Of a stretch of DNA of 64,000 nucleotides, positions 17,867-41,426 are shown in pieces (the stretch's first letter is position 1; each line of letters begins with the position of its first letter). Origin of the DNA: an uncultured Pseudomonadota bacterium (lineage in GTDB: Bacteria > Pseudomonadota > Gammaproteobacteria > Burkholderiales > CAIKXV01); NCBI GenBank assembly GCA_903831455.1, contig CAIKXV010000296.1, positions 3,363 through 67,362 of the forward strand. The letters are read 5' to 3'. The notes under the pieces were generated by a model that saw only the letters and a list, made by a program, of their open reading frames with translations, had not been told where the DNA came from and did no database searches. The position numbers and the translations under genes were made by a program.

Positions 17867-18060
17867 CGCGTGCCCTGCCGCCCGGCGTCATCGGGCAAGT
17901 GCACGCGTTGCGGTAGACTTGCGCCCTTCCGGGGCGGTTCGAGCCGCCCTGCCCCCGGGGTCCGGCCCGGCCGCCCGAGCGCGTGCCGGCTCGCCCGCCG
18001 CGACCCCGCCTTTTTCCACGCGGCCCCGCGGGGCCGCCCGCAGAGATCCCGGAGGACTCC

Positions 18061-19074
18061 ATGGCGATTCGCGTAGGCATCAACGGGTACGGCCGCATCG
18101 GACGCAACATCCTGCGTGCGCTCTATGAATCCGGTCGCACCGGCGAGATCCAGGTCGCCGCGATCAACGACCTCGGCGATGCCCAGACCAACGCGCACCT
18201 GACCCGCCACGACACCGCGCACGGCCGTTTCCCGGGCAAGGTGGAAGTCGATGGCGACAGCATGGTGGTCAACGGCGACCGGATCCGCGTGTTCGCGGTG
18301 CGCAACCCCGCGGAAATCGCCTGGGGTTCGGTCGGGGTCGACGTGGTGCTCGAGTGCACCGGCCTGTTCACCACGAAGGAGAAGGCGGGTGCGCACCTCA
18401 AGGGCGGCGCGAAGAAGGTCGTGATCTCGGCCCCCGGGGGCAAGGACGTCGATGCCACCGTGGTCTACGGCGTGAACCACGGGGTCCTCAAGGCCAGCGA
18501 CACCGTGATCTCCAACGCGTCCTGCACGACCAACTGCCTCGCGCCGCTGGTCAAGGTGCTGCACGAGAAGGTGGGCGTGGTGAACGGCCTGATGACCACC
18601 GTGCACTCGTACACCAACGACCAGGTGCTCACCGACGTCTACCACGAGGACCTGCGGCGCGCGCGGTCGGCCACGCAATCGATGATTCCCACCAAGACCG
18701 GTGCCGCGGCCGCGGTCGGACTGGTGCTGCCCGAGCTCAACGGGCGCCTGGACGGTTTCGCGATCCGCGTGCCCACGATCAACGTGTCGGTGGTCGACCT
18801 GTCCTTCGTCTCCGCGCGGGCGACCAGCGTCGAGGAAGTGAATGCCATCATGAAGGAGGCGGCCAGCCGCCCCGAGTGGCAGGGCGTGCTCGGCTACAAC
18901 GACGCGCCGCTGGTGTCGATCGACTTCAACCACGACTCGCGCTCGAGCGTGTTCGACTCCACCCTCACCAAGGTGTCGGGCAACCTGGTCAAGGTGTCGT
19001 CGTGGTACGACAACGAGTGGGGTTTCTCCAACCGCATGCTGGACACCACGCTGGCCCTGATGGCGGCGAAGTGA
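18061..19074 (+). CDS. gap: glyceraldehyde-3-phosphate dehydrogenase (type I)
   Basis: ATG at 18061 preceded by [16 protein letters not shown], active site [23 protein letters not shown]. Confidence 0.95.
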
Positions 19075-19105
19075 CCGGATCGGGTACTCGGGCGGGGCAG
19101 GCACG

Positions 19106-20293
19106 ATGAACATCCGGCGCATGCAGGACCTGGATCTTTCCGGCAAGCGGGTGTTCATCCGCGCCGATCTCAATGTCCCCCAGGACGACTCGGGCGCCAT
19201 CACCGATGACACCCGCATCCGTGCGTCGGTGCCCGGCATCGAACTGGCGCTTGCCGCCGGCGCCCGGGTGATGGTCACCTCGCACCTCGGCCGACCGAAG
19301 GAGGGTGAACTGCGCCCCGAGGATTCGCTCGCGCCGGTGGCACGGCGGCTCTCGGAACTGCTCGGCCGACCGGTGCCGCTGGTGCGCGACTGGGTCGATG
19401 CCGCCGAAGTCGCACCCTCCCCGGGTTCGGTGGTGCTGCTGGAGAACTGCCGCTGCAACCGGGGCGAGAAGAAGGACGACGAGGCGCTGTCGCGCCGGAT
19501 GGCCGCGTTGTGCGACGTGTACGTGAACGATGCCTTCGGCACCGCGCATCGCGCCGAGGCCACCACGCACGGCATCGCCCGCTTCGCGCCCGTGGCCTGC
19601 GCCGGCCCGCTGATGGCCGCGGAGGTCGAGGCGCTGACCCGCGCGCTCGCGCAGCCGCGGCGTCCACTGGTGGCGATCGTCGCCGGCTCGAAGGTCTCGA
19701 CCAAGCTCACCATCCTCAAGTCGCTCGCCTCGCGCGTCGATCGGCTGATCGTGGGTGGCGGCATCGCCAACACGTTCATGCTGGCACGCGGGCTGCCGAT
19801 CGGCCGCTCGCTGGCCGAACCGGACCTGCTCGAGGAGGCGCGCTCGGTGATGGCCGAACTCGCCGCGAAGGGAGGCGAGGTGCCGATCCCGGTCGACGTC
19901 GTGGTCGCGCCGGCCTTCGCCGCCGATGCGCCGGCCACCGTCAAGGCCGCGAACGCGGTGGCGGCCGGGGACATGATCCTGGACATCGGTCCGAAGACCG
20001 CGGCGACACTGGCCGACCTGCTGCGCGGCGCCGGCACGATCGTCTGGAACGGTCCGGTCGGCGTGTTCGAGTTCGATGCGTTCTCCGGCGGCACGCGTGC
20101 GATCGCCGAGGCCGTGGCCGAGTCCTCCGCGTTCTCGATCGCCGGCGGCGGCGACACGATCGCGGCCATCAACCGCTTCGGCGTTGCCGATCGCGTCGAC
20201 TACATCTCCACCGCCGGCGGTGCCTTCCTGGAATTCCTGGAGGGCAAGGAACTGCCGGCACTCGCGGCGCTGCAGGCGCGCGCGGCGGCCTGA
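19106..20293 (+). CDS. pgk: phosphoglycerate kinase
   Basis: 395-aa [30 protein letters not shown] motifs. Confidence 0.95.
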
Positions 20294-20316
20294 GCGGCGC
20301 GCGCACGGGGGAATCG

Positions 20317-21753
20317 ATGAATCGCCGAACGAAGATCGTCTGCACGCTGGGTCCGGCCACCAACGACCCGAAGGTGCTCGCGCGCATGATCGACGCCGGC
20401 ATGGACGTCGTGCGCATCAACTTCTCCCACGGCACGGCCGAGGAACACGCGCGGCGGGTCGAGACCATCCGCTCGCTCGCCCGCGCGGCGGGCCGCACCA
20501 TCGGCGTGCTGATGGACCTGCAGGGCCCGAAGATCCGGATCGGCAAGTTCGAAGCCGGCAAGACCGTGCTCAAGCCCGGGGCACGGTTCGTCCTCGATGC
20601 CCGCTGCAAGCTCGGCAACGACGAGCGCGTCGGGCTCGACTACCCGAACCTGCCCCGCGACGTGCGGGCGGGCGACACGCTGCTGCTGAACGACGGCCTG
20701 ATCGTGCTCACCGTGGCCGAGGTCAAGGGCCAGCAGATCGTCACGGTGGTCGACCAGGGTGGCGTGCTCTCGAACAACAAGGGCATCAACCGCAAGGGCG
20801 GAGGACTCACCGCCCCGGCACTGACCGAAAAGGACATGGAGGACATCCGGATCGCCGCCGAACTCAAGGCGGACTATCTCGGGGTTTCCTTCCCGCGGTC
20901 GGGCCAGGACATCGAGTGGGCGCGCAGCCTCCTGCACAAGGCCGGCGGTCGCGCGCTCATCTGCTCGAAGATCGAACGCGCGGAGGCCATCGCCTCGCTC
21001 GAGGAGATCGTCGAGGCCTCCGACGTCATCATGGTCGCGCGCGGCGACCTCGCGGTCGAGGTCGGCGACGCGGTGATCCCGGCGCTGCAGAAGCGCATGA
21101 TCCGGCTCGCCCGTGCGCGCAACAAGGCGGTGATCACCGCCACGCAGATGATGGAGTCGATGATCTCCTCGCCGATTCCCACGCGCGCCGAGGTGTCCGA
21201 CGTGGCCAACGCGGTCCTCGACGGCACCGACGCCGTGATGACCTCGGCGGAGACGGCGGCCGGCCAGTATCCGGTCGAGACCGTCGAGGCGATGGCCCGG
21301 GTCTGCATCGAGGCCGAGAAGGCGGACCTCGCCTCGTATGGCGAGCGGCGCGCTGCCGAGGAGTCGAGCCGCGACGTCGAGGGGGCGATCGGTCGGGCGG
21401 TGATGTCCACGGCCAACTACCTGCCGATCCGCGCGATCGCGGCGCTGACCCAGAGCGGGCGCACCGCGCTGCTGATGTCGCGCAACGATTCGCCGGTGCC
21501 CATCTACGCGCTCACGCCGCTGGTGGAGACGCGCCGGCGCGTGACCGTATTCCGCGGCGTGCATCCGGTGAACTTCACCGTGAAGTCGAAGGATCCGGAG
21601 GAGACGCTCAACGCCGCCGAGGACGAGCTGCTGCGGCGGGGCGCGGTGCAGAACGGCGACCTCATCGTGATGACGATCGGCGAGCCCTTCGGCAAGGCGG
21701 GCGGAACCAACACCATGAAGATCGTCCGCGTGGGCGAACATCGAAAGCCCTGA
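20317..21753 (+). CDS. pyk: pyruvate kinase
   Basis: Internal ATG at 20317. TKIVCTLGPAT, MDVVRINFSHG, MVARGDLAVE motifs. Confidence 0.93.
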   Translation: MNRRTKIVCTLGPATNDPKVLARMIDAGMDVVRINFSHGTAEEHARRVETIRSLARAAGRTIGVLMDLQGPKIRIGKFEAGKTVLKPGARFVLDARCKLGNDERVGLDYPNLPRDVRAGDTLLLNDGLIVLTVAEVKGQQIVTVVDQGGVLSNNKGINRKGGGLTAPALTEKDMEDIRIAAELKADYLGVSFPRSGQDIEWARSLLHKAGGRALICSKIERAEAIASLEEIVEASDVIMVARGDLAVEVGDAVIPALQKRMIRLARARNKAVITATQMMESMISSPIPTRAEVSDVANAVLDGTDAVMTSAETAAGQYPVETVEAMARVCIEAEKADLASYGERRAAEESSRDVEGAIGRAVMSTANYLPIRAIAALTQSGRTALLMSRNDSPVPIYALTPLVETRRRVTVFRGVHPVNFTVKSKDPEETLNAAEDELLRRGAVQNGDLIVMTIGEPFGKAGGTNTMKIVRVGEHRKP

Positions 21754-21827
21754 GCACGAGCAGACCCTTCGCGCCTGTCTCTCGATCGGCGCGGCACTGG
21801 ACCGAAGGACCAACCGGGAGACCCGAG

Positions 21828-22856
21828 ATGGACAGCAAACTGATGGCCGCGACCGCCGCGGCGATGGTGGCCAGCGGCAAGGGCCTGCTGGCGGCCGACG
21901 AGAGCAGCGCGACCGTGGCCAAGCGCTTTGCCGGCGTGAACGTCGAGAACACGGAGGCCAACCGGCGCACGTACCGCGACCTCCTCTTCACGACGCCGGG
22001 CATCGGCTCGCATATCAGCGGCGTGATCCTGTTCGACGAGACGATCCGCCAGTCCTCGCTGGCGGGCAAGCCCTTCCCGGCGCTGCTCGAATCCCAGGGC
22101 ATCATTCCCGGCATCAAGGTCGACGGCGGCGCCAAGGATTACGCCGGCCATCCGGGCGAACAGGTCACCGAGGGACTGGACGGCCTGCGCGGCCGGCTCG
22201 CCGAGTACTTCAAGCTCGGTGCGCGCTTCGCCAAGTGGCGCGCGGTGATCAACGTCGGCCGCGACATCCCGTCCTCGGGTTGCATCGAGGCCAACGCCCA
22301 CGCGCTCGCGCGCTACTCGGCCCTGTGCCAGGAGGCGAGCATCGTCCCGATCATCGAGCCCGAGGTGCTGATCGACGGCGACCACACGATCGAGCGCTGC
22401 CACGAGGTGAGCGAGGCGGTGTTGCGCGCGACCTTCCAGGCCTGCTATGGCCAGCGGGTCTCCGCCGAGCACCTGATCCTGAAGGCCAGCATGGTGATCT
22501 CGGGCAAGTCCTGCGCGACGCAGGCCCCCGAGGAGCAGGTGGCCGACATGACCGTCGAATGCCTGAAGCGCGCCGTGCCGGCGGCGCTACCCGGCGTGGT
22601 CTTCCTGTCCGGCGGCCAGAGCGACGAGAAGGCGGCGGCGCACCTGTCGCTGATGAACTCGCGGCACGCCGGTCGACTGCCCTGGCCGCTGACCTTCTCC
22701 TACTCGCGCGCCCTGCATCAGGCCGCACTCAAGGCCTGGAGCGGTCGCGAGGGCAACGTCCAGGCGGCGCAGGGCGTGTTCGCGCATCGCGCGCGCATGT
22801 GCAGCCTCGCCTCGCAGGGGCGCTACACCGCGGTCGAGGAGCGCACGGCGGGCTGA
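21828..22856 (+). CDS. fba: fructose-bisphosphate aldolase, class I (Schiff-base type)
   Basis: Internal ATG at 21828. GKGLLAADESSATVAKRF, ISGVILFDETIRQ, ILKASMVISG (Schiff-base Lys context), VVFLSGGQS. Confidence 0.9.
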   Translation: MDSKLMAATAAAMVASGKGLLAADESSATVAKRFAGVNVENTEANRRTYRDLLFTTPGIGSHISGVILFDETIRQSSLAGKPFPALLESQGIIPGIKVDGGAKDYAGHPGEQVTEGLDGLRGRLAEYFKLGARFAKWRAVINVGRDIPSSGCIEANAHALARYSALCQEASIVPIIEPEVLIDGDHTIERCHEVSEAVLRATFQACYGQRVSAEHLILKASMVISGKSCATQAPEEQVADMTVECLKRAVPAALPGVVFLSGGQSDEKAAAHLSLMNSRHAGRLPWPLTFSYSRALHQAALKAWSGREGNVQAAQGVFAHRARMCSLASQGRYTAVEERTAG

Positions 22857-23564: not shown

Positions 23565-23681
23565 TGCTCGAGAGTCCTCCAGGGTGGCGCGGCTGGCGAT
23601 CGGCCGCTCGCTGCGGCCCGGGCCGCAGCCGGGCTCAGAGTATATGCCTGCGGCCGCGGGCGTCGGTGGCGGCGTCCCGGC

Positions 23682-24209
23682 TCAGGCGGTGAGTTGCTTG
23701 ACCAGCACGTCGAGGTGGCCGAGCGTGACGGCGCGCATCTCATCGGCACCGAGGTTGCTGATGGGATGCGGCAGCTCGATGTAGGGATGGCCCGGCATGC
23801 CGCGCGACCTGAACTGGAACACGCAGGCATTGCGGAACGCCTGGGTGATGATCACGGTGGCGGGGATGCCGCGACGTTCGAACTCCACGGTGTCGTGCAC
23901 ACTGCACAACGTGCACGACCCTCATCCACCGACGGCGGCCACCGCCAGATGCGCCTCCTGGGCGAGCTCGTCGATCAGCTGATCGGTGGCGGGCTTCGAG
24001 TAGTGTTCCTTGCTGCGGATGATCACCCGGGCCACGCCGTGGCGCTCCTTCAGCGCCGCGGCGATCGTCTCGAGGATCAGCGTGCCCTGCTCCTTGGTGT
24101 TGTCCACCATGGCCACGACCCTGCCGGCAAGGTCCATGGGTCGGGGCGCAAGGGGTATGGCCGGGCGGTTGCCTCCGGCAGACGGATCGATGAAGGGCAA
24201 GGGTTGCAT
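23682..24209 (-). CDS. UGSC-motif (seleno)protein candidate, 175 codons, with in-frame TGA (Sec) at 23922..23924
   Basis: ATG at 24209 preceded by AAGGAGG. Minus-strand reading is continuous across the TGA: ...AVAAVGG-U-GSCTLCSVHDTVEF... The track splits it into 23922..24500 and 23682..23909. The downstream piece has only a TTG start and no RBS. A stable hairpin follows the TGA directly. Confidence 0.7.
23892..23919 (-). promoter_or_regulatory. SECIS-like RNA hairpin immediately 3' of the in-frame UGA
   Basis: Minus strand UGA-GG-GUCGUGCAC-(GUUGUGCAGU)-GUGCACGAC. Perfect 9-bp stem with a 10-nt G/U-containing loop. The stem can extend by G-C pairs across a bulged A. Confidence 0.6.
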
Positions 24210-24237
24210 CGGCGGTCCTCCTTGGAAGTCGGATGGA

Positions 24238-25263
24238 TCAGGCGCGGGGTACGCGATAGCGTCCATGGACCGCACGGCTGCCGCCGCTCCAGCCATGGCA
24301 GATCGCGGTGCAGGGGCCCCAGCCGCCGGCCACCACCAGCAGCAGGTCGTCGGGATGCTTGATCGCCGGCACGAAGCAGCCATCGTCGTCGGGGTCGACG
24401 GCGATCGGCAGCGCCAGCGCCCGCTCGCGTCGCCAGTTGCCGCCGCGCCGAAGGTCCCCGACCGTGCGTCCGGCGCGTTCGACCAGCCACCGGTGGACAT
24501 CGGTGCGGCTCATGCCCGCCTCGGCGCAGAGCGTCGCGTGCTGCGGACCCATCGCGACCACCATGTCCGACCGCGCGTGCATGTTCCATGACCCCAGCGC
24601 CGCCATCCCGTCGGCGATGCCGGTGAGCAGGCGTTCGGGATCCTGGCTCACGTCGTCGAAGTGCAGTCGCGGAGATTCGACCATCGCGCATGCGATCGTG
24701 TCCTCGTCGACGCGATGGCCCTGCGCGACGGCGAGCGTCTCCCAGGGGCTGCGCTCGACGTTCTCGGTGATGCAGGCCGTATAGCGCAGGGGCGAGCCGA
24801 AGATCGTGGCCGAGGCGACACCGGCCATGCCGCCGCCGAGGTTGAGCAGGATCAGCCGGATCGCGCGCCCGATCGACGCGTTGGCCCGGAAGCCGGGGCC
24901 GAAGCAGCCATTGCCGCCGTTCAGTCCGACGCGCGCGGCGTGCGGCCCGTTGACGATCATCAGCGGCGCGACGCCATGCATGGTGCCCTGGACGCCGTTG
25001 AGATTGAACGGTTCGAGCAGCATGAGGTCGAGCGCGGCGATGACGACCGGCAGGTGGTCGGGCCGGCAGCCGGCCATCAGCGCGTGCAGCGCGACGTCAC
25101 GCACGGTGGCGACGTTCATGGCCGGGGGTACCGCGCCGATCACGTCCTCGGGCAGGCGCCCCGCGGCCGCCAGCATCGGGGCGAGCCGGGCTTCGGTGGG
25201 CGTGACGACCGGCAATCCGTCCGACCACGGTTTTTCCAGAAAGAACTCGAACTCGTCGATCAT
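24238..25263 (-). CDS. uncharacterised protein, tandem paralog A (341 aa)
   Basis: ATG at 25263 preceded by AAGGAG. High GC3 coding signal. Conserved blocks WSDGLPVVTPT, AVPPAMNVATVRDVALHA, NLNGVQGTMHGVAPLMIVNGP, GPGFRANA.IGRAIRL, VVAGGWGP. I recognise no family. Confidence 0.8.
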   Translation of the reverse strand: MIDEFEFFLEKPWSDGLPVVTPTEARLAPMLAAAGRLPEDVIGAVPPAMNVATVRDVALHALMAGCRPDHLPVVIAALDLMLLEPFNLNGVQGTMHGVAPLMIVNGPHAARVGLNGGNGCFGPGFRANASIGRAIRLILLNLGGGMAGVASATIFGSPLRYTACITENVERSPWETLAVAQGHRVDEDTIACAMVESPRLHFDDVSQDPERLLTGIADGMAALGSWNMHARSDMVVAMGPQHATLCAEAGMSRTDVHRWLVERAGRTVGDLRRGGNWRRERALALPIAVDPDDDGCFVPAIKHPDDLLLVVAGGWGPCTAICHGWSGGSRAVHGRYRVPRA

Positions 25264-25282
25264 GCCCGGCCCCGCTCCTTTC

Positions 25283-26314
25283 TCAATCGACCCGGTAGCG
25301 GCCATGCACCGCACGGCTGCCACCGCCCCAGCCGTGCGCCACGGCGCTGACCGGCCCCCAGCCACCAGCGACGATCAGGTGGAGGTCCTGCGGGTCCTTG
25401 ATGACCGGCACGAACGCGTCGTTGCATGCCGGATCGACGCCGATGCGTCGCGCCCGCTCGTCGCGCCAGTTGCCGCCGCGGCGCAGGTCGCCCGCGGTCC
25501 GGCCCGCCTGCCGCACCAGCCATTCGTGCACGCGAGCGCGGTCCCAGCCGGCGCGTGCGCAGATCGTCGCCTGCTCGGGCCCCAGCACCACCACCATGTC
25601 CGAGCGCACGTGCATGTTCCAGCTGCTCATCGCAGCCATCGAGTCGGCGATGCCGGTGAGCAGGCGCTCGGGACCCTGGCTGACGTCGTCGTAGCAGAGA
25701 CGGGGCGCCTCGACCATCGCGCAGGTGATCACGTCCTCGTCGACGCCGTAGCCGCGCGAGACCGCGAGCGTCTCCCACGGGCTGCGCTCGATGTTCTCGG
25801 TCCAGCAGGCGGTGTAGCGCAGCGGCGAGGACAGCACCGTGGCCGAGGCGAGGCCGGGGATACCGCCGCCCAGGTTGAGCAGCAGCAGCCGGATCGCGCG
25901 GCCGATGGTGGCGTTGGCCCGGAAGCCCGGTCCCAGGCAGCCGTTGCCGCCATGCAGTCCGATGCGCGTCGCGTAGGGGCCGTTGACGATCATCAGCGGT
26001 GCGACGCCGTGCATGGTGCCCTGCACGCCGTTGAGGTTGAACGGTTCGCGCAGCATCAGTGCGAGGCCGCCCAGCACCACCGGCAGATACTCGGGCAGGC
26101 AGCCGGCCATCACCGCGTGCAGCGCCACGTCGCGCACGGTGGCGACGTTCATGGCCGGGGGAACCGCGCCGATCACCTCCGTCGGGTCGCGGCTCGTCCC
26201 GTGCAGCATCCAGTCGAGCCGCTCCTGCGTCGGCGTCACGACCGGCAGGCCGTCGCTCCACTCCTTCGCGAAGAAGAACTCGAACGGATCGAGTCCGTCC
26301 CCGGCGTCGGTCAT
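25283..26314 (-). CDS. uncharacterised protein, tandem paralog B (343 aa)
   Basis: ATG at 26314 forms an ATGA overlap with the stop of the upstream Bug gene. Colinear with paralog A over its full length. It occupies the lower third of spurious track ORF 25283..28033. Confidence 0.8.
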   Translation of the reverse strand: MTDAGDGLDPFEFFFAKEWSDGLPVVTPTQERLDWMLHGTSRDPTEVIGAVPPAMNVATVRDVALHAVMAGCLPEYLPVVLGGLALMLREPFNLNGVQGTMHGVAPLMIVNGPYATRIGLHGGNGCLGPGFRANATIGRAIRLLLLNLGGGIPGLASATVLSSPLRYTACWTENIERSPWETLAVSRGYGVDEDVITCAMVEAPRLCYDDVSQGPERLLTGIADSMAAMSSWNMHVRSDMVVVLGPEQATICARAGWDRARVHEWLVRQAGRTAGDLRRGGNWRDERARRIGVDPACNDAFVPVIKDPQDLHLIVAGGWGPVSAVAHGWGGGSRAVHGRYRVD

Positions 26315-27294
26315 TCGGCCTTGATCCCCGCGGCCTTCACCACGCGCGTGTAGCGTCCGATCTCGCCCTCGATGAACTTGCGGAAGTCGGCGGGTGAGTT
26401 GGCGAACGGCTCGGTGCCGAGCTTGACCAGGGCGGCCTGGTTCTTCGGATCGCCCACGGCGCGGGCGATCTCCTTCGCCAGGCGCTCGACGATCTCGCGC
26501 GGGGTGCCGGCCGGGGCGAGGAGCCCGTACCACTGCGTGACCTGGAAGTCCTTCAGAAGCTCCGCGATCGCAGGCACCTCGGGGATGGTGCGCTTGAGGC
26601 CGGTGGTGGCGATGATGCGCATCTTGCCTGCCTTGGCGAAGGGCACCACGGCCGGGCCGGTGCCGTAGAGCATGGTGGCCTCGCCCGAGAGCACCGCCAC
26701 CGCGGCCGGACCGTTGCCCTTGTAGGGCACGTGCAGGATGTTCACGCCCCCGAGCAGGTTGAGCAGCTCGCCCGCGAGGTGGGGCCCGCCCAGCAGGCCG
26801 CTGGAGGCGAACGAGAGTTCGCCGGGGCGTTTCTTCGCCAGCGCGATCAGGTCCTTGAGCGAGCGCACCGGCAGCGACGGATGCACCGTCAGGATGTAGT
26901 CCGAGGTGGCGGCGAGGCTGATCGGCGCGAGATCGCGCAGAGGATCGTAGGGGAGCTTCGGGTTGGCCGCCGGCAGGATGGCGATCGGGGCGACGTTGCC
27001 CAGCACCAGCGTGTGGCCGTCCGCGGGCGCCTTGGTGGCGAGTTCGGTTCCGATCTGGCCGCTGGCCCCGGGACGGGTGTCGATGACCAGCGGCTGGCCG
27101 AGCTGTTCGCCCAGTGCCTGCGCGACGATCCGACCGACCGCGTCGGTACCGCCCCCGGGCGGATAGGGAGAAATCATCCGGATCGGCTTGGCCGGCCATG
27201 CCGCCTGTGCGCTCGCGACGGCGGGCAGGGCGAGCAGGGCCGCGGCGGCGAGTCCGCTTGCGGCGAGCAACGGATTGCGGTTCATGGGGTTCAT
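26311..27294 (-). CDS. Bug-family (TctC-like) tripartite tricarboxylate transporter substrate-binding protein
   Basis: 327-aa ORF. Signal peptide ending ASAQAAWP. Typical Bug blocks PIRMISPYPPGGGTD..GR, V.N.PGA.G and HVPYKG. Confidence 0.85.
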   Translation of the reverse strand: MNPMNRNPLLAASGLAAAALLALPAVASAQAAWPAKPIRMISPYPPGGGTDAVGRIVAQALGEQLGQPLVIDTRPGASGQIGTELATKAPADGHTLVLGNVAPIAILPAANPKLPYDPLRDLAPISLAATSDYILTVHPSLPVRSLKDLIALAKKRPGELSFASSGLLGGPHLAGELLNLLGGVNILHVPYKGNGPAAVAVLSGEATMLYGTGPAVVPFAKAGKMRIIATTGLKRTIPEVPAIAELLKDFQVTQWYGLLAPAGTPREIVERLAKEIARAVGDPKNQAALVKLGTEPFANSPADFRKFIEGEIGRYTRVVKAAGIKAE

Positions 27295-27411
27295 CCTCGC
27301 GGTGAGGGGGGATCGCTCTGGCGCGAGCGACGACGTTGCGGATGCTAACGGATTCGGGAGTCCTGGCCCGGCCTGGCGGTGCCGGAGTGAACCCGGGCCG
27401 CCGATCGCGGA

Positions 27412-28083
27412 TCAGCCCTCGACGTGGTTGGCCGGATCGGCGCTGAATCGCTGGAAGGCAGGGCGCTGGACGATCCGGGAATACCAGCGCTCGATGTTCG
27501 GGAAGGACGGGCGCACCGGCTCGAGCAGTACCCAGCGGTGCACGCGGATGCCGATCGGGATGTCGCCGAAACTGAACGCCTCGCCGGCCATGTAGGCGGT
27601 ACGCGCGAGCTGGTCCTCGACGATCCGCAGCTTGCGCGCGAATGCGTCGCGCGCGGCGGCGAGCGTCGACGGATTGCGCTGCTCCAGCGGCAGCCGGACC
27701 CGCTCCATCACCATGTCGTGCTGGGGCGGCAGCAGTTCGTTGTTCTCGAAATCCTGCCAGCGCGACGCCGAGGCGAAGGTGCGCAGATCGTCGCCGTAGA
27801 GGGCCTGCGGCGCGTAGCGCATGGCGAGATAGCGGCAGATCGCGTTCGACTCCCAGAGCACGAAGCCCTCGTCGTCGATGGTCGGGATGCGTCCGTTCGG
27901 GTTGAGTGCCCGGTACTCGGGCGTGTCGACGACACCGAACGGGCGATTGCCCTTCGCGACATGGCCCCCGGGCCCCATCACCGCGCTGGCCGGGATGAGT
28001 TCGAAGTCCACCCCGCACTCGGCGAGTGTCCACAGCACCTTCTGCGTACGGTTGGAGGTAAGCCTGCCCCAGAGCTTCAGCAT
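27412..28083 (-). CDS. glutathione S-transferase family protein
   Basis: ATG at 28083 (MLKLWGRLTSNRTQKVLW...). N-terminal thioredoxin-like GST fold with RIPTIDDEGFVLWESNAICRYL, plus a helical C-terminal domain. Confidence 0.8.
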   Translation of the reverse strand: MLKLWGRLTSNRTQKVLWTLAECGVDFELIPASAVMGPGGHVAKGNRPFGVVDTPEYRALNPNGRIPTIDDEGFVLWESNAICRYLAMRYAPQALYGDDLRTFASASRWQDFENNELLPPQHDMVMERVRLPLEQRNPSTLAAARDAFARKLRIVEDQLARTAYMAGEAFSFGDIPIGIRVHRWVLLEPVRPSFPNIERWYSRIVQRPAFQRFSADPANHVEG

Positions 28084-28117: not shown

Positions 28118-29062
28118 TCAGGCGACCGTGCGGCCGTGCGCGACCACGGCCGCGGCGACCCGTTGCGCGTCGGCGATGGCATCGCCGAGGCGCCCGCCAT
28201 ACCCGCTTCGCACCGCGCCCACGGCAAACACGCCGGCGCGGGTGGTTGCGCCGCTGGCGTCGGTGAGGATCGCCCCCGCGCTATCGGTCGGCAGTCCGGC
28301 CCAGCCCGACCGCGGTTCGAGTCCGATGCAGGGGAACACCGCATCGACGGCCAGCGTGCGTCGGGTGCCGTCGGAACCCTGCAGCACGATCGCCTGCAGC
28401 GTCTGCGCGCCCTCGATGCCGACGACCTGATGCTCCGGGTGCAGCGCGTAGCGGTCGGGACTGTCGATCCGCGCGCGGTCGAAAAGGGTGCGCAGCCGCG
28501 CCCGCGCGCGGGGCTCTCGACCCCGCAGCACCAGATGCACGCGGCTTGCATGGCGCGCGAGCACCATCGCCTCCTGCAGTGCGCTGTCACCACCGCCCAC
28601 GACGGCGACCTCGCGGCCGCCGAGCAACGGCGCGTCGCAGTCGGCACACCACGACAGGCCGCGCCCCTCGAAGCGATCGAGACCGGCGATCGGCAGTCGG
28701 CGGCGCGCGGCTCCGGTCGCAACGATCACGCAGCGTGCGGCATGGACGGCCTCGGGGGTGGCGACCTCCCATCCCTCCCGGAGGGACCGGAGCGACACCG
28801 CCGCCTCAGGCAGGCGCACGACGCCGGCGTCCATCGCCTCGCTGGCGAGCAGCGTCGCGACATCGATGCCCGAGCCCTCGAGGTCGGCGCCCTCGAGGTC
28901 GGTGCCGGCGTCGACGAGTTCGTTCACGCTGGCGACCAGGCCGCCGTACAACTCCGGCTCCAGGGACAGCACGGAGAGCCCCGCGCGCGCGCAGGCGAGC
29001 GCAGCGGCCAGCCCGGCGATACCCTCGCCGGCGACGATCACATCATGCTGCTCCATGGACAT
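28118..29062 (-). CDS. thioredoxin-reductase-like FAD/NAD(P)-dependent disulfide oxidoreductase
   Basis: ATG at 29062 preceded by GGAG. DVIVAGEGIAGLAAA (FAD GxGxxG), redox CxxC in SWCADCDAP (compare TrxB CATCD), VAVVGGGDSALQEA (NAD(P)H site), GVFAVGAV. Confidence 0.8.
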   Translation of the reverse strand: MSMEQHDVIVAGEGIAGLAAALACARAGLSVLSLEPELYGGLVASVNELVDAGTDLEGADLEGSGIDVATLLASEAMDAGVVRLPEAAVSLRSLREGWEVATPEAVHAARCVIVATGAARRRLPIAGLDRFEGRGLSWCADCDAPLLGGREVAVVGGGDSALQEAMVLARHASRVHLVLRGREPRARARLRTLFDRARIDSPDRYALHPEHQVVGIEGAQTLQAIVLQGSDGTRRTLAVDAVFPCIGLEPRSGWAGLPTDSAGAILTDASGATTRAGVFAVGAVRSGYGGRLGDAIADAQRVAAAVVAHGRTVA

Positions 29063-31084: not shown

Positions 31085-32095
31085 CTATTCGGGCTTGATG
31101 CCGGCGTCCTTGATCACCCGCGCGAACCGGTTGGCTTCGCTGCGGATGAAGCGCCCGAACTCCTCCGGCGTGCTGGTGAGCGGCTCGACGCCGGCGGAGG
31201 CAAAGCGCGGCTTCATGTCGGCGGCGGTCACGGCCTTCGCGAGTTCGGTGTTGAGCCGGGCGATGATCTCCCGCGGCGTGCCGGTCGGCGCGAGCATGCC
31301 GTACCAGACGCTGATCTCGAAGTTGGGGAAGCCCTGCTCGCGGGTGCTGGGAACGTCCGGAAGGTCGGGGAAGCGCTGCGGCATCAGCACGGCCAGCGCG
31401 CGAACGCGCCCGGCGTTGATCTGCTGCACGGCCGCCGGGGCCGCGACCACCAGCATGTCGATCTCGCCGCCCACCAGCGCCGAGAGCGCGACGCCGGAGC
31501 CCTTGTAGGGCACGTGCACGATGTCGAGTTTCTCCAGGCTCTTCAGGAGCTCGGGCGCCAGATGCGTGGTGGTGCCGATGCCGCCGGATCCGTAGTTGAG
31601 CCGACCGGGGGTGCGGCGGGCCAGCGCCACCAGTTCCTTCAGGTTGCGGGCGGGCACGGATGGGTGGACCACCAGCACGTTGCGCACCGCACCCACGAGC
31701 GCGATGGGCGCGAGGTCCTTGTACGGGTCGTAGTTGAGGCGGCTGTAGAGCAGCGGGCTCAGCGCGATCACCGGCGAGCTCAGCACGATCGTGTAGCCGT
31801 CCGGCGCCGATCGGGCCGCCGCCTCGAGGCCGACGTTGCCGCTGGCTCCCGGGCGTGACTCCACCACGATCGGCTGGCCGAGCTGCTCGGCGAGTCGCGC
31901 GGACACCAGCCGGCCGACGATGTCGGTCGGGCCCCCGGGCGGGAACGGCGAGATCATCCGCAACGGCCTCGACGGATACTGGGCCTGCGCGTGGGCCATG
32001 GATGCCGCGAGCGGCGCGACACCGAACGCGAGGGCGACGACCGCGGCTCGGGCCATGCGGCCGGTGGGCCGCGGTGCGAACGGATCTCGATGCAT
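31085..32095 (-). CDS. Bug-family (TctC-like) substrate-binding protein, second copy
   Basis: 336-aa ORF. Signal peptide ending AHAQAQYP. PLRMISPFPPGGPTD..GR, HVPYKGSG. Confidence 0.85.
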   Translation of the reverse strand: MHRDPFAPRPTGRMARAAVVALAFGVAPLAASMAHAQAQYPSRPLRMISPFPPGGPTDIVGRLVSARLAEQLGQPIVVESRPGASGNVGLEAAARSAPDGYTIVLSSPVIALSPLLYSRLNYDPYKDLAPIALVGAVRNVLVVHPSVPARNLKELVALARRTPGRLNYGSGGIGTTTHLAPELLKSLEKLDIVHVPYKGSGVALSALVGGEIDMLVVAAPAAVQQINAGRVRALAVLMPQRFPDLPDVPSTREQGFPNFEISVWYGMLAPTGTPREIIARLNTELAKAVTAADMKPRFASAGVEPLTSTPEEFGRFIRSEANRFARVIKDAGIKPE

Positions 32096-32174
32096 GATTC
32101 CTCCGGGCGATGGCGAGTCGACCGCTCCGCGGAGCCGGCGGCGGCCGGCGCCGGGGAGCGCGGCGGCGCCTGTT

Positions 32175-32639
32175 CTAGTAGTGCGACTTGAAGCTGATCG
32201 CCTCGCGGTAGGCGAGATCCTCGAGGTCGATGTAGGAGCGCTTCGTCTCGCGGTCGACGGTGAACTGCATCTTGCGATCGGTCTCGTTCGTGGCGCGGAT
32301 ATCGAGCAGCTCGAGGTATTCCTTCACCTCCCACTCGTGCGCCCCGGCGATGCCCGCGGGCGCGTAGATCATCGAGCCGGGACCGACCTCGAAGGCGTCG
32401 CCGTTGAGGTTGCGTACCGTCGCCCGGCCCGCGATCACGTAGTAGCAGGCCTCGATCGGATGCCAGTGCAGCTTCTCCACCGTCCCGGGCTTGTAGGTGG
32501 CCCGGCCGATCCGCACCCGGTCGGTGGGCTGGATCTCCGGCCACCCCACCAGCCGCTGGTAGGTCTGGCCGTCCACGACACCGCGCCGACCCGGGCAGTC
32601 GGTTTCGCTCAGTACTCGCAGGGTGGGTTTCACGTCCAT
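32175..32639 (-). CDS. cupin domain protein
   Basis: ATG at 32639 preceded by GGAGGAG. Cupin motifs HWHPIEACYYVIAGRATV and PGSMIYAPAGIAGAHEW. It occupies the lower part of spurious track ORF 32175..33377. Confidence 0.75.
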   Translation of the reverse strand: MDVKPTLRVLSETDCPGRRGVVDGQTYQRLVGWPEIQPTDRVRIGRATYKPGTVEKLHWHPIEACYYVIAGRATVRNLNGDAFEVGPGSMIYAPAGIAGAHEWEVKEYLELLDIRATNETDRKMQFTVDRETKRSYIDLEDLAYREAISFKSHY

Positions 32640-37768: not shown

Positions 37769-39013
37769 TCACGCGCGGACCAGCCCCAGCAGATGCGCGA
37801 GGTCCTTGAAGAAGATGCGTACCTGCGCCATGGGTTTGCGCCGGGTGAGCTTCTTGTTCATGTAGGACTCCCAGGTGAGCTTCTGGACGTCCGGGTCGCG
37901 GCAGATCGATACGAAGCGCTCGCGGCGTCGGTCGGAGCTGTACCAGAAGCGCTGCATGATGCCCAGTACCCAGAACACCCGACCGTGGGCCTTCATGAAG
38001 CGGCGCCGAGCGGCGCCCAGCGCCGAGGCGCGTCCGGTCTCGAGGAAAACCTCCACCGCGTCGGCGGCCATGCGCCCACCGGTCATCGCGTAGTAGATGC
38101 CCTCGCCCGACGCCGGGGCCACCACGCCCGCCGCATCGCCGGCGAGCACCACGTCGCGACCGTTGTCCCAGCGCGTCATCGGGCGCATGGGGATGGGCGC
38201 GCCCTCCCGGCGAACGGTGCGCGAGGAGCTCAGGCCGGCGGAGCGTCGCAGCTCGGTGGTCGCATGGCGCAGCGAAAACCCGCGCTGGGCGGTTCCCACG
38301 CCGACGCTGGTGGTCGCCCCGTGGGGAAACACCCAGCCGTAGAAGTCGGGCGAGAGCCGGCCCTGGTACCAGACATCGCACCGCGCCGGATCGAAGCGGG
38401 AACCCGCGGGGGACGGTTCCGGCGAGGTGACGATCTCGTGGTAGGCATAGACGAAGGGTGCGGGCGCGACGTCGGGCAACGCGTCGCGGGCAACCGCCGA
38501 CTGCGCGCCGTCGGCACCGATCACCGCGCGCGCGCGAACCGAGCACGACGTCCCGGGACCGTCGGGTGCGTCGGCGGCGCGCGATCGCCAGTAGACGACG
38601 GCAGTGCCGTCGGCATCGCGGCCGATCCGGTCGAAGGTGCCGTTGACCCGGTGCGCACCGTTCGCGCGCGCCCGTTCGCGCAGCCACTCGTCGAAGTGTT
38701 CGCGGTCGACCATGCCGACGTAGCCGTCCTCGATCGGCATGTCCACCTCGCGCTCGCTCGGCGAGACCATGCGCGCCGAGGTGACCTTGGCCACGAGTTG
38801 CGAGTCGGGCACCTCGAATTCGCGGATCAGCGCGGGAGGTACCGCGCCTCCGCAGGGCTTGATCCGCCCGGCGCGATCCAGTAGCAGCACCGAGCGGCCG
38901 CGCCGGGCGAGATCGTCGGCCGCGGTGGCGCCGGCGGGGCCGCCGCCGACGATCACGACGTCGTACTGGAGGAGCGTGGAGGCTGCGTTCGGTGTGGCGA
39001 GGGGGGTCTGCAT
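37769..39013 (-). CDS. bchP: geranylgeranyl diphosphate / geranylgeranyl-bacteriochlorophyll reductase
   Basis: ATG at 39013. YDVVIVGGGPAGATAA, RIKPCGGAVP, MVDREHFDEWLR. Located after bchG and the PucC-like gene, as in other photosynthesis gene clusters. Confidence 0.9.
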   Translation of the reverse strand: MQTPLATPNAASTLLQYDVVIVGGGPAGATAADDLARRGRSVLLLDRAGRIKPCGGAVPPALIREFEVPDSQLVAKVTSARMVSPSEREVDMPIEDGYVGMVDREHFDEWLRERARANGAHRVNGTFDRIGRDADGTAVVYWRSRAADAPDGPGTSCSVRARAVIGADGAQSAVARDALPDVAPAPFVYAYHEIVTSPEPSPAGSRFDPARCDVWYQGRLSPDFYGWVFPHGATTSVGVGTAQRGFSLRHATTELRRSAGLSSSRTVRREGAPIPMRPMTRWDNGRDVVLAGDAAGVVAPASGEGIYYAMTGGRMAADAVEVFLETGRASALGAARRRFMKAHGRVFWVLGIMQRFWYSSDRRRERFVSICRDPDVQKLTWESYMNKKLTRRKPMAQVRIFFKDLAHLLGLVRA

Positions 39014-39113
39014 GGCGATGCTCCCGGAGGGGGGGCCGACGGCGGTCGAGGGCGGGTGGTCGCGATTCTCGGAGCGGGATGCGCGCAGGGGAGTCGAGCC
39101 GAAGGCGCGGTCT

Positions 39114-40490
39114 TCAGCGTCCGCCGAGGCCGGCGGCGTAGTGCTCTGGAGACACCGGAAGCGCGCGCGAGCCGGTGTCCGGCACATGCGCGCGACCGAT
39201 GCGAAGGGCGAGGAGGGCCGAGACCACGAACAGCACGGCCTCCAGCGCGAATACCGTGGTGTAGCCGACGGCAGCCGAGCCGCTCGCGTGGCGGAACACG
39301 TCGCTCAGCACGGCGCCGACGAAACCGCCGGCACCGAAGGCGATCGCCTGCGCGGCTCCCCACAGCCCCATGCGCGTGCCCTCGCGATTGCGTACGCCCT
39401 CGCCCGCGAGCGCCATCATCGAGCCGATCGCGGCGACGGCGAAGGCGCCGTTGCCGGCGCCGAGCAGGAAGACGTTGATGACGAGGGGCCAGTCCTCGCC
39501 CGCGTGGCCGCCGACCGCAAGCCCTGCCAGGGCCAGGGCCGACGCGATGCAGCCGCCCACCGTCCATCCGGAGAGCGTGCCCAGCCTGCGGCCGCGCACG
39601 CCCCGACCGGCGAGCAGCGCGACGAGCATCATCCCGCACAGCACCCCCGCGTTCTGCTGGCCGGCGAGGCGGGTCGACTGTCCGGGCGTGTAGCCGAACA
39701 CGGTGCCGGCGAACGGCTCGAGGATGAGGTCCTGGGCGCTGAAAGCCAGCATCGACATGAAGACGAAGACCGTGAAGCGGCGGGCGCGGTGGTCGGACCA
39801 CACCTCGGCCAGGGCTTCGCGGAATGGCACCTGCGTGCGCGTGGGCGCCGCGCGGGTGCCGGCGCGCTCGACGCCGGCGACCGCGAGCAGGGTCACCGTG
39901 AAGGCGATGGCGGCGACCGTGGCGGCGACGCCCACGAGTCGCGCGGGGGAGAACGGGTCGAGGAAGTGCCCGGCGGTGGCGGCGGTGATGATGAAGCCGA
40001 CGATCATCATCATCCACACGATGGTGGCGGCGGCACCGCGGCGGGCGGGTGCCACCTCGCGTGCAAGCAGGGTGAGCAGCGCGGTCCCGGAGGCGCCCAC
40101 GCCGACGCCGATGAGCGTGAAGGCCAGCGCGGCCAGCGCGATGCCCGCCCAGAGTTCGCTGGCCATCCAGGCGGTGGCCAGCGCCGCGAGCGTACCGCCC
40201 GCGGCGAGCACCCCCATGCCGCCGACGATCCACGGGGTGCGTCGACCGCCGACGTCGGATCCGTAGCCCAGGCGTGGCCGCAGCATCTGGATCGCGTAGT
40301 GCAGTCCGACCAGCGCGCCGGGCAGGAGCGCGGGCAGCGCGTACTCCACCACCATCACCCGGTTCATCGTCGAGGTGGTGAGCACGACGATCGCACCGAG
40401 CGCAGTCTGCACCAGGCCGAGCCGCACGATGCCAAGCCAGCCGAGGCCGTGGGGACCGTCGTGGATCGGGGCGGGAGTGTCGTCGCGCAC
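39114..40490 (-). CDS. PucC/BCD-family MFS protein (Bch2-like)
   Basis: 458-aa 12-TM ORF. LVQTALGAIVVLTTSTMNRVMVVE and LRPRLGYGSD blocks shared with LhaA/PucC. Lies between bchG and bchP. Confidence 0.85.
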   Translation of the reverse strand: MRDDTPAPIHDGPHGLGWLGIVRLGLVQTALGAIVVLTTSTMNRVMVVEYALPALLPGALVGLHYAIQMLRPRLGYGSDVGGRRTPWIVGGMGVLAAGGTLAALATAWMASELWAGIALAALAFTLIGVGVGASGTALLTLLAREVAPARRGAAATIVWMMMIVGFIITAATAGHFLDPFSPARLVGVAATVAAIAFTVTLLAVAGVERAGTRAAPTRTQVPFREALAEVWSDHRARRFTVFVFMSMLAFSAQDLILEPFAGTVFGYTPGQSTRLAGQQNAGVLCGMMLVALLAGRGVRGRRLGTLSGWTVGGCIASALALAGLAVGGHAGEDWPLVINVFLLGAGNGAFAVAAIGSMMALAGEGVRNREGTRMGLWGAAQAIAFGAGGFVGAVLSDVFRHASGSAAVGYTTVFALEAVLFVVSALLALRIGRAHVPDTGSRALPVSPEHYAAGLGGR

Positions 40491-40497
40491 GGGGGAC

Positions 40498-41379: not shown

Positions 41380-41408
41380 GACCCCACGTTACTGGCGGGC
41401 TGCGCGCG

Positions 41409-41426
41409 CGTCAACCTGTCCTGACA
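41409..41426 (-). promoter_or_regulatory. near-consensus PpsR-type site upstream of bchG (TGT-N12-ACG on the minus strand)
   Basis: Minus strand TGTCAGGACAGGTTGACG, 30-47 nt upstream of the bchG ATG. One mismatch to TGT-N12-ACA. Overlaps an 8-bp hairpin palindrome. Confidence 0.3.

What the first reader, a model, noticed from the sequence alone, without database searches (positions are those of the whole stretch)
23682..27294. Candidate uncharacterised selenium-dependent system: Bug binding protein, paralog B, paralog A, UGSC selenoprotein in one coupled operon
Four co-directional genes are packed with a 4-nt ATGA overlap (26311..26314), a 19-nt gap and a 28-nt gap. Each downstream gene has its own Shine-Dalgarno sequence. 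Larger 117-nt gaps on both sides (27295..27411 and 23565..23681) set the unit apart. The composition is a periplasmic Bug/TctC-type carboxylate-binding protein, two diverged copies of an unknown cytoplasmic protein, and a small UxxCxxC selenoprotein. This resembles the logic of Sec-dependent substrate reductases: a substrate-specific component plus a redox-active selenoprotein. Here, however, it occurs in a phototrophic, aerobic-type betaproteobacterial background and with unrelated partner proteins. I know of no characterised pathway with this composition. The likely substrate is an organic acid delivered by the Bug protein (inference).
Basis: inference. Interest (0 to 1): 0.85.

Follow-up and report, generated by a model that had tools for sequence, protein, structure and literature searches.

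The report
Orphan selenoprotein with obligate partner enzyme
The four genes are real, and two kinds of them, a small selenocysteine protein of the known but uncharacterised UGSC family and an unstudied 340-residue protein present here in two copies, almost always occur together across bacteria and archaea, which suggests an uncharacterised two-part redox enzyme.

Summary
On the minus strand lie a Bug/TctC binding protein, two 74%-identical copies of an unannotated protein ("partner"), and a UGSC-family gene with an in-frame TGA, with the stated overlap and gaps.

- **Selenocysteine.** The TGA very probably encodes Sec. It is conserved in 75 of 80 homologues (Cys in 3) and is followed by a covarying hairpin with a conserved G-U loop.
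- **Conserved core.** The core is the partner plus UGSC, not the four genes. UGSC lies beside 68 of 82 partner genes from many phyla. A partner lies beside 35 of 36 UGSC genes found by DNA motif alone. The two are fused in both orders in some organisms.
- **Bug.** Bug is an accessory specific to betaproteobacteria (8 of 16 modules).
- **Partner.** It matches no Pfam or NCBIfam family and no solved fold, despite a confident model.
- **UGSC.** It has a flavodoxin-like fold and is a probable remote relative of the Sec module of glycine/proline reductase selenoprotein B.

My best reading is a heteromeric selenoenzyme in which Sec96-x-x-Cys99 does reductive chemistry on a substrate held by the partner. 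The substrate and reaction are unknown. The UGSC family has been catalogued since about 2007, and a fusion to an unknown domain was noted in 2008. The obligate pairing and the remote link to selenoprotein B are not in the papers I could search.

The parts
23682..24209 (-). UGSC-family selenoprotein gene (175 codons); motif U96-G-S-C99-T-L-C102
   Evidence: PF24696 at 2e-47 and NF041046 above its cutoff. The TGA column is conserved in 75 of 80 homologues, with Cys in 3. The UGSC domain of a natural fusion homologue models as a flavodoxin-like alpha/beta fold, with the Sec-equivalent residue at the N-terminus of a helix.
23922..23924 (-). In-frame TGA read as selenocysteine (codon 96)
23892..23910 (-). 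SECIS-like hairpin, 14-32 nt after the first base of the TGA: 8 bp (GUUGUGCA / UGCACGAC) closing a G-U-G loop
   Evidence: Across 67 distinct homologous sequences 89% of cells are paired, against 16-57% when the partner is slid. One pair swaps CG to GC in 24 sequences, through a synonymous Val codon position. Loop G and U are at least 90% conserved.
24238..25263 (-). Partner protein, copy A (341 aa); family with no Pfam or NCBIfam model
   Evidence: Searches give no family. One search finds 4549 cluster representatives. The AF2 model has pLDDT 95.2 and no solved-structure match at E<=1e-3. UGSC lies adjacent in 68 of 82 cases.
25283..26314 (-). Partner protein, copy B (343 aa), 74% identical to copy A
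   Evidence: The same two-copy layout occurs in L002-L005. Tandem partner-partner fusions such as P0123 exist.
26311..27294 (-). Bug/TctC periplasmic solute-binding protein with a signal peptide; accessory component
   Evidence: PF03401 at 3e-61. The closest solved relatives are carboxylate-binding Bug proteins, including Bug27, BugD and terephthalate-binding protein. A Bug gene is adjacent on the same strand in 8 of 16 betaproteobacterial modules and in none from other phyla.
28118..29062 (-). Thioredoxin-reductase-like flavoprotein (CADC motif); possible electron donor, membership uncertain
   Evidence: TIGR01292 at 147 bits, below its cutoff of 343, and PF07992. Similar genes or fusions accompany the module only sporadically: P0252, L068, L086, L089.
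27412..28083 (-). Glutathione S-transferase-family gene between the reductase-like gene and Bug; membership uncertain
   Evidence: It is not conserved next to the module elsewhere.

Best explanation
The locus encodes a heteromeric selenoenzyme. Its conserved core is the UGSC selenoprotein plus an uncharacterised 340-residue partner, present here as two paralogs that probably form a heterodimer.

UGSC is a small flavodoxin-like protein. It carries Sec96-x-x-Cys99 at the N-terminus of a helix and is a probable remote relative of the Sec-bearing module of selenoprotein B (GrdB/PrdB) of the glycine and D-proline reductases.

Proposed mechanism (inferred):
1. The partner binds the substrate through its conserved residues D15, C66, R133, C164 and E167.
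2. The selenolate of UGSC attacks or reduces the substrate.
3. Cys99 resolves the adduct and leaves a Se-S bond.
4. A thiol system re-reduces that bond: general thioredoxin/thioredoxin reductase or glutathione, and in this window possibly the thioredoxin-reductase-like and GST genes upstream.

The Bug protein is a lineage-specific accessory that probably captures the carboxylate substrate in the periplasm.

Shown: Sec decoding signals, obligate pairing, gene fusions, remote homology and the fold class.
Inferred: direction of electron flow, reductive chemistry, substrate class and the A/B heterodimer.
For: Sec:
- The TGA is conserved in 75 of 80 homologues, with Cys in 3.
- The hairpin covaries and has a conserved G-U loop.

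Pairing:
- 68 of 82 evaluable partner genes, from Betaproteobacteria, Dehalococcoidia, Methylomirabilota, Binatia, Acidobacteriota, Actinomycetota and haloarchaea, have UGSC within 700 nt on the same strand, in either order.
- 35 of 36 UGSC genes retrieved by the Sec-site DNA motif alone have a partner gene adjacent.
- Natural fusions exist as partner-UGSC (P0124, P0161, P0166) and UGSC-partner (P0138, P0146, P0175).
- AF2 models a fusion with pTM 0.92 despite a disordered linker, which implies a defined interface between the domains.

Selenoprotein B link:
- 18 of 30 diverse UGSC proteins hit TIGR01917. Others hit the GrdF, GrdH and PrdB models.
- hhalign against PrdB-like sequences gives P=2.7e-4 with U on U and C on C.
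- GrdB carries the same UxxCxxC motif (PMC13188914).

Dimer: two- and three-copy partner arrays and single-chain tandem partners occur.

Reductant: one partner-thioredoxin reductase fusion (P0252). trxB lies in the same gene run in the Variovorax and Roseovarius plasmids and in L068. A reductase-like gene lies two genes upstream here.

Carboxylate context: Bug, TRAP, CoA-transferase, enoyl-CoA hydratase and SDR genes recur nearby.
Against: - No experiment bears on any step.
- The homology to selenoprotein B is weak: E about 1e-4, hhalign probability 42%, covering about 76 columns.
- The partner shows no similarity to GrdE/PrdA, and nothing indicates a pyruvoyl group.
- Thioredoxin-reductase-like genes lie within 3 kb in only 1 of 78 genome loci and 0 of 48 metagenome loci, so a dedicated reductase is not part of the core.
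- Some fused UGSC domains have lost both Sec/Cys and the resolving Cys. In those members the partner must work without this redox centre.
- About 8 partner genes have no UGSC anywhere in the locus.
- Neighbouring gene families differ between loci, and they are families that are abundant in these genomes anyway.
- No Sec machinery (selA, selB, selC, selD) lies in the window, so decoding in this organism is inferred.
Confidence: 0.5

Rival explanations
1. UGSC acts as a dedicated thioredoxin-like 'selenoredoxin'. The partner is the complete enzyme and cycles through a Cys66-Cys164 disulfide or a cysteine adduct. UGSC only re-reduces it, as thioredoxin does for arsenate reductase, methionine sulfoxide reductase or PAPS reductase. 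Sec never touches the substrate.
For: The partner has two nearly invariant cysteines, C66 in 64 of 66 sequences and C164 in 63 of 66. U-x-x-C at a helix N-terminus is the classic layout of a redox carrier. trxB genes and one fusion accompany the module. Partner genes sometimes occur without UGSC.
Against: General carriers are rarely fused to, or strictly syntenic with, a single client, yet here the pairing is 35 of 36 and 68 of 82. The fold is flavodoxin-like, not a thioredoxin fold. The only detectable relatives, GrdB and PrdB, use Sec on the substrate itself (PMC11229817).
Confidence: 0.27
2. The partner is a non-redox enzyme such as a hydratase, isomerase or lyase. UGSC is mainly a structural or regulatory subunit whose Sec/Cys pair senses redox state or binds a metal or metalloid.
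For: Some fused UGSC domains lack both U/C and the second Cys but are retained. The best fold matches for the partner are to class I fumarate hydratases, though they are not significant: E 3e-3, TM 0.26-0.30. Fused forms in Vibrio and Sporomusa sit beside aconitase X dehydratase genes.
Against: Sec is costly to encode, yet it is kept in 75 of 80 homologues together with an invariant resolving Cys, which points to catalysis. The fold matches fall below any significance threshold.
Confidence: 0.13
3. The four genes form one dedicated uptake-plus-catabolism operon for a single organic acid, with Bug as an integral component.
For: The four genes are tightly packed, including an ATGA overlap between Bug and paralog B. 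The identical order occurs in L002 with a closely matching Bug (442 bits). A Bug gene is adjacent on the same strand in 8 of 16 betaproteobacterial modules.
Against: No Bug is adjacent in any non-betaproteobacterial locus. It is also absent beside the close relatives L001, L003 and L006. Different loci carry different Bug paralogs, scoring 57 to 442 bits. Bug genes are very numerous in these genomes. No TctA or TctB membrane component was identified among the adjacent genes I examined.
Confidence: 0.3
4. The TGA is a real stop or the gene is a pseudogene, so the locus encodes two small unrelated peptides.
For: Automated gene callers split the gene into products of about 96 and 75 residues in every database record seen. 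No Sec machinery is visible in the window.
Against: The TGA sits at exactly one column in 75 of 80 homologues, with Cys in 3. Protein conservation continues in frame after it. A covarying hairpin follows it. The curated NCBIfam model is named a (seleno)protein family.
Confidence: 0.03

Closest known systems
UGSC-containing selenoprotein family (PF24696 / NF041046; Zhang and Gladyshev metagenome surveys, PMC1976440 and PMC2398784)
   Same: The window protein is a full-length member scoring above the curated cutoffs, with the defining U-G-S-C motif. [quoted passage not shown]
   Different: Nothing differs at the level of the protein. What is added here is context that the searchable literature does not give: an obligate partner, a fold class that is flavodoxin-like rather than the suggested thioredoxin-like fold, and the link to selenoprotein B. 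Function was still listed as unknown in a 2026 review.
Substrate-specific protein B of the glycine/sarcosine/betaine reductases (GrdB with the GrdE-derived pyruvoyl subunits) and D-proline reductase (PrdB with PrdA)
   Same: A Sec subunit with U-x-x-C (UxxCxxC in GrdB and in the window protein) works with a separate substrate-binding subunit encoded next to it. Remote sequence similarity aligns Sec to Sec and Cys to Cys. The family has diversified over many substrates. Thioredoxin-system genes are sometimes linked.
   Different: UGSC has 175 residues, against about 240 for PrdB and 430 for GrdB, and only about 80 residues are alignable. The partner is unrelated to GrdE/PrdA (PF09338 and the NCBIfam models give no hit in 66 sequences). 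No GrdA, GrdC, GrdD, PrdC or PrdH equivalents were seen. The hosts include aerobes, phototrophs and haloarchaea rather than Stickland fermenters.
Thioredoxin / thioredoxin reductase client systems (for example arsenate reductase or methionine sulfoxide reductase with thioredoxin)
   Same: A redox-active pair sits at a helix N-terminus. The module is occasionally linked or fused to a low-molecular-weight thioredoxin reductase carrying a CxxC motif.
   Different: UGSC does not have a thioredoxin fold. It is bound to one client family by synteny and fusion. It uses Sec in most members.
Bug/TctC orphan solute-binding proteins of the tripartite tricarboxylate transporter family
   Same: The first gene is a typical member with a signal peptide. 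Its closest solved relatives bind carboxylates.
   Different: No TctA or TctB was identified among the adjacent genes examined. Its tie to the selenoenzyme module is lineage-specific and partial.

Membership tests
UGSC family (seleno)protein (NF041046 / PF24696) | Full-length match to the family model above the curated cutoff | tested here: met
   NF041046 scores 130.3 bits against a cutoff of 125. PF24696 scores 161.9 bits against a cutoff of 25, covering profile positions 3-171 of 172.
UGSC family (seleno)protein (NF041046 / PF24696) | U/C-G-S-C motif with the first position encoded by an in-frame TGA or a Cys codon | tested here: met
   The window reads GG-U-GSC-TLC. The column is TGA in 75 and Cys in 3 of 80 homologues, and G97 and C99 are invariant.
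Bacterial selenoprotein gene (Sec decoding) | SECIS-type stem-loop shortly downstream of the UGA, with G-U in the apical loop | tested here: met
   An 8-bp hairpin lies 14-32 nt after the UGA. 89% of cells are paired, compensatory CG/GC changes occur in 24 of 67 sequences, and loop G and U are at least 90% conserved. No Rfam family matched.
Bacterial selenoprotein gene (Sec decoding) | Host genome encodes selA, selB, selC (tRNA-Sec) and selD | not testable with these tools
   There is no tRNA gene in the window, and none of the ORFs I scanned is a sel gene. The rest of the genome was not available.
Selenoprotein B family (GrdB/GrdF/GrdH/PrdB; PF07355, TIGR01917/01918/04483) | Significant match to the family models | tested here: not met
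   Only sub-threshold hits: TIGR01917 at 19.9 bits against a cutoff of 602, and no PF07355 hit even at E<=10. UGSC is therefore not a member, only a probable remote relative.
Selenoprotein B family (GrdB/GrdF/GrdH/PrdB; PF07355, TIGR01917/01918/04483) | Sec in a U-x-x-C motif that aligns with the family's Sec | tested here: met
   hhalign of the UGSC profile against 18 PrdB/GrdB-like sequences aligns U with U and C with C (P=2.7e-4, 76 columns). 18 of 30 UGSC proteins hit TIGR01917 over the Sec region.
Selenoprotein B family (GrdB/GrdF/GrdH/PrdB; PF07355, TIGR01917/01918/04483) | Adjacent pyruvoyl proprotein subunit (GrdE/PrdA, PF09338) | tested here: not met
   The adjacent partner proteins hit no Pfam family. 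None of 66 family members hits a GrdE or PrdA model in NCBIfam at E<=1.
Thioredoxin-fold redox proteins (earlier suggestion for UGSC in PMC2398784) | Thioredoxin fold | tested here: not met
   The model of the UGSC domain of a natural fusion (local pLDDT mostly 90 or higher) matches flavodoxin-like alpha/beta domains with TM about 0.5 on the target. No thioredoxin-fold protein appears among the top matches. All E-values are weak, at 2e-3 or worse.
Tripartite tricarboxylate transporter receptor (TctC/Bug, PF03401) | Family model match plus an N-terminal signal peptide | tested here: met
   PF03401 scores 207.6 bits. The N-terminus reads LLALPAVASA-Q. The closest solved structures are Bug proteins.
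Thioredoxin-disulfide reductase (TIGR01292) | Score above the equivalog cutoff, a CxxC redox motif and FAD/NADPH motifs | tested here: inconclusive
   The gene at 28118-29062 scores 146.6 bits against a cutoff of 343. It has CADC and both nucleotide-binding motifs but is only 26% identical to E. coli TrxB. It is a divergent paralog, not the housekeeping enzyme.

The most novel reading that the evidence does not exclude
UGSC plus its partner is a widespread, unrecognised class of two-subunit selenoenzyme in aerobic and phototrophic bacteria, with Cys versions in haloarchaea. Its Sec subunit descends from the same stock as selenoprotein B of the Stickland reductases, but it has recruited a catalytic subunit with a fold not seen in any solved structure in place of a pyruvoyl protein. 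It would carry out reductive bond cleavage on a range of small carboxylate substrates. [quoted passage not shown]
Probability: 0.3. Interest if true: 0.8.

Novelty: new variant of a known kind. Interest (0 to 1): 0.62.

Why it matters
[quoted passage not shown] Three results make the problem experimentally tractable:
- **A partner.** UGSC is bound by synteny in both directions and by gene fusion to one large uncharacterised family (about 4500 clusters at 50% identity).
- **A lead on chemistry.** Its Sec module resembles that of the glycine and proline reductases.
- **Testable organisms.** Cultured carriers with Cys versions exist, so no Sec-expression system is needed: Variovorax sp. SRS16, Roseovarius sp. 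THAF8, Natrinema and Vibrio europaeus.

If the reductase reading is right, Sec-dependent reductive cleavage would extend from strict anaerobes to aerobic heterotrophs and phototrophs. The partner would also be a candidate new enzyme fold.

Tried and rejected
- **Known family for the partner.** Pfam down to E=10, NCBIfam on 66 members at E<=1 and PDB sequence search all found nothing.
- **Known fold for the partner.** Foldseek against the PDB gave no match at E<=1e-3. The top hits, class I fumarate hydratases, have TM 0.26-0.30 and rmsd about 16 A, so I did not accept them.
- **Internal repeats in the partner.** None found.
- **Partner as a GrdE/PrdA pyruvoyl proprotein.** No sequence support. 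I rejected membership, though an analogous role stays open.
- **Solved PrdB or GrdB structure for a fold comparison.** None matched the UGSC profile by sequence, and the 2024 Prd paper found relies on AlphaFold models.
- **Dedicated thioredoxin reductase as a core component.** Rejected: 1 of 78 and 0 of 48 loci. The module-linked trxB genes are not one clade, at 26-65% identity to E. coli TrxB.
- **GST and cupin neighbours as conserved parts.** Not conserved.
- **Operon boundaries.** No promoter or terminator signals in the gaps.
- **Whether 'Unknown_1' of the 2008 paper is this partner.** The figure panel is an image and the stored sequence file is truncated.
- **Protein-pattern scan of metagenomes with the UGSC alignment.** It failed for lack of a conserved stretch. 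I replaced it with a DNA-motif scan.
- **Source organism of the window.** Only a 3-kb record without DNA was returned.

Full report
**Observation.** The four genes lie on the minus strand as described.
- Bug: 27294-26311.
- Paralog B: 26314-25283 (343 aa).
- Paralog A: 25263-24238 (341 aa).
- Selenoprotein gene: 24209-23682, with an in-frame TGA at 23924-23922 (codon 96).

The ATGA overlap, the 19-nt and 28-nt spacers and the 117-nt flanking gaps are present. Paralog A and the selenoprotein gene have strong Shine-Dalgarno sequences. Paralog B has a weak one, and Bug more likely starts at its second ATG. Bug matches PF03401 (TctC). The small protein matches PF24696 and NF041046, the UGSC family, above the curated cutoffs. 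The two paralogs are 74% identical and match no Pfam or NCBIfam model.

The co-directional run is longer than the finding states. Upstream lie a 2-hydroxyacid dehydrogenase, a thioredoxin-reductase-like gene and a GST, separated by 8 and 34 nt. A cupin gene follows downstream. No promoter or terminator pattern marks the 117-nt gaps, so the transcript boundaries are open.

**Is the TGA selenocysteine?** I collected UGSC homologues that lie next to partner genes in 85 loci. 75 of 80 have TGA at exactly this column, 3 have a Cys codon, and protein conservation continues in frame after it.

An 8-bp hairpin lies 14-32 nt after the TGA. Across 67 distinct sequences, 89% of cells are paired, against 16-57% when the 3' partner is slid by one to three columns. 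One pair switches from C-G to G-C in 24 sequences. That switch links the third base of a Cys/Trp codon to a synonymous third base of a Val codon, so protein selection alone does not explain it. The loop G and U are at least 90% conserved, as expected of bacterial SECIS elements (established knowledge).

The window holds no tRNA gene, and none of the ORFs I scanned is a sel gene. Decoding in this particular organism is therefore inferred.

**What is the conserved unit?** The partner family is large. A full scan finds 4549 cluster representatives at E<=1e-3, and every named one is called hypothetical.

- *Forward test.* In 80 loci from species-representative genomes spanning Betaproteobacteria, Dehalococcoidia, Methylomirabilota, Binatia, Acidobacteriota, Actinomycetota and a haloarchaeon, 68 of 82 evaluable partner genes have a UGSC gene within 700 nt on the same strand. 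It lies downstream in 41 and upstream in 27.
- *Reverse test.* 120 metagenome contigs were retrieved only by the DNA motif around the Sec codon. Of these, 36 have at least 900 nt on both sides of UGSC, and 35 of those 36 carry a partner gene next to it.
- *Fusions.* The two proteins are fused in both orders in some organisms. Partner-partner tandem fusions also exist.

About eight partner genes have no UGSC anywhere in the locus. No third family is consistently present. The most frequent neighbours each occur in 11 to 14 of about 80 loci: Bug, luciferase-like oxidoreductases, enoyl-CoA hydratases, family III CoA-transferases and SDRs.

**Bug.** A Bug gene lies directly beside the module on the same strand in 8 of 16 evaluable betaproteobacterial modules, and in no locus from another phylum. 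The exact order Bug-partner-partner-UGSC recurs in L002, with a closely matching Bug. The close relatives L001, L003 and L006 lack it. Bug is therefore a frequent, lineage-specific accessory and not a core part. Its closest solved relatives bind carboxylates.

**Thioredoxin-reductase link.** The link is real but sporadic.
- One protein fuses the partner to a thioredoxin reductase (P0252).
- Plasmids of Variovorax sp. SRS16 and Roseovarius sp. THAF8 carry trxB in the same gene run as the pair.
- L068 has a reductase-like gene 44 nt from a UGSC gene.
- The window has a divergent reductase-like gene with a CADC motif two genes upstream.

However, only 1 of 78 genome loci and 0 of 48 metagenome loci have such a gene within 3 kb. 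The linked genes are also not one clade. I read this as reliance on a thiol-reducing system, sometimes supplied locally.

A natural UGSC-partner fusion (P0175) models with pLDDT 93 and pTM 0.92 despite a disordered linker. This implies a defined interface between the two domains. Its UGSC domain is a flavodoxin-like alpha/beta domain, not a thioredoxin fold, and the Sec-equivalent Cys sits at the N-terminus of a helix directly after a beta-strand.

**Relation to known selenoenzymes.** 18 of 30 diverse UGSC proteins independently give sub-threshold hits to the glycine reductase selenoprotein B model over the Sec region. Others hit GrdF, GrdH and PrdB. A profile-profile comparison with PrdB/GrdB-like sequences from the GOS data set aligns U with U and C with C over 76 columns (P=2.7e-4, probability 42%).

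GrdB carries the same UxxCxxC motif as the window protein (PMC13188914). In proline reductase the Sec of PrdB attacks the substrate bound to the neighbouring PrdA subunit (PMC11229817). UGSC fails the membership test for that family. The partner shows no relation to the pyruvoyl proproteins GrdE and PrdA. The resemblance is therefore one of logic plus probable remote ancestry of the Sec module.

**Mechanism.** I consider a heteromeric selenoenzyme most likely. The partner holds the substrate; in this window the two paralogs probably form a heterodimer. Sec96 performs the nucleophilic or reductive step, Cys99 resolves it to a Se-S bond, and a thiol system restores the selenol.

The main rival is that UGSC only re-reduces a C66-C164 disulfide on the partner. 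Fused UGSC domains that have lost both redox residues show that some family members work without this centre. This keeps a structural or regulatory role in play. The substrate is unknown. The transport and CoA-metabolism neighbours point weakly to small carboxylates.

**Novelty.** The UGSC family is already catalogued (PMC1976440; PMC2398784). It is known to be abundant in aquatic metagenomes, and in 2008 it was reported fused to an 'Unknown_1' domain, which I could not confirm to be this partner. Its function was still listed as unknown in 2026. The searchable literature does not contain the obligate two-way pairing, the size and apparent fold novelty of the partner family, the flavodoxin-like fold of UGSC, or the link to selenoprotein B. 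I rate the finding a new variant of a known kind: a Sec-dependent two-subunit enzyme. Interest is moderate to high because it makes a long-standing orphan directly testable.

Noticed in passing
window 37772-51457: Photosynthesis gene cluster: a geranylgeranyl-reductase-like flavoprotein (37772-39304, -), PucC (39117-40532, -), a PpsR-like PAS/HTH_8 regulator (41446-43104, -) and the BchH-type Mg-chelatase large subunit (47318-51457, +). This supports a phototrophic host.
   Followed up: partly
window 17917-22853 (+): A run of glyceraldehyde-3-phosphate dehydrogenase, phosphoglycerate kinase, pyruvate kinase and class I fructose-bisphosphate aldolase lies just before the cupin end of the cluster, on the opposite strand.
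   Followed up: no
window 31088-32323 (-): A second Bug/TctC gene lies about 1 kb upstream of the 2-hydroxyacid dehydrogenase gene, on the same strand as the cluster.
   Followed up: no
L088 6359-8044 (Vibrio europaeus plasmid) and L090 5323-7047 (Sporomusa termitida plasmid): In two unrelated bacteria a long hypothetical protein (561 and 574 aa) containing the partner domain lies within about 2 kb of aconitase X and its DUF126 small subunit. Its size matches the UGSC-partner fusions, though I did not confirm the UGSC domain. In Vibrio an enolase follows; in Sporomusa an FAD oxidoreductase follows.
   Followed up: no
P0154, P0165; L051 6050-6463; L068 10157-10561: Some UGSC domains, fused or stand-alone and next to partner genes, have lost both the Sec/Cys and the resolving Cys (for example IAEIGGSLFG and GGNPT). 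The redox centre is therefore dispensable in some members.
   Followed up: partly
L007, L068, L084, L009: Several genomes carry two or three partner-UGSC modules side by side. L009 has three tandem partner genes with the UGSC gene 4 kb away. This suggests a family that has diversified by substrate.
   Followed up: partly
window 23892-23917 (-): In the window itself the minimum-energy fold is a longer 10-bp stem with an 8-nt loop starting 5 nt after the TGA codon. It overlaps the conserved 8-bp hairpin, and only the shorter one is supported across homologues.
   Followed up: yes
PMC2398784 Dataset S1 (GOS reads): The 'PrdB-like' selenoproteins, abundant in the GOS ocean samples, share with UGSC the module strand - U-x-x-C - helix - E..G-[IL]-[PS]-T. 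I did not examine what partners they have.
   Followed up: partly
L087 6324-8020 (Natrinema zhouii plasmid) and other haloarchaeal plasmids: Haloarchaea carry the partner gene. In the two loci examined (L087, L033) a UGSC gene lies directly upstream (4-nt overlap in L087), and L033 has Cys at the Sec position. In L087 DUF6282, amidohydrolase and Rieske protein genes follow.
   Followed up: partly
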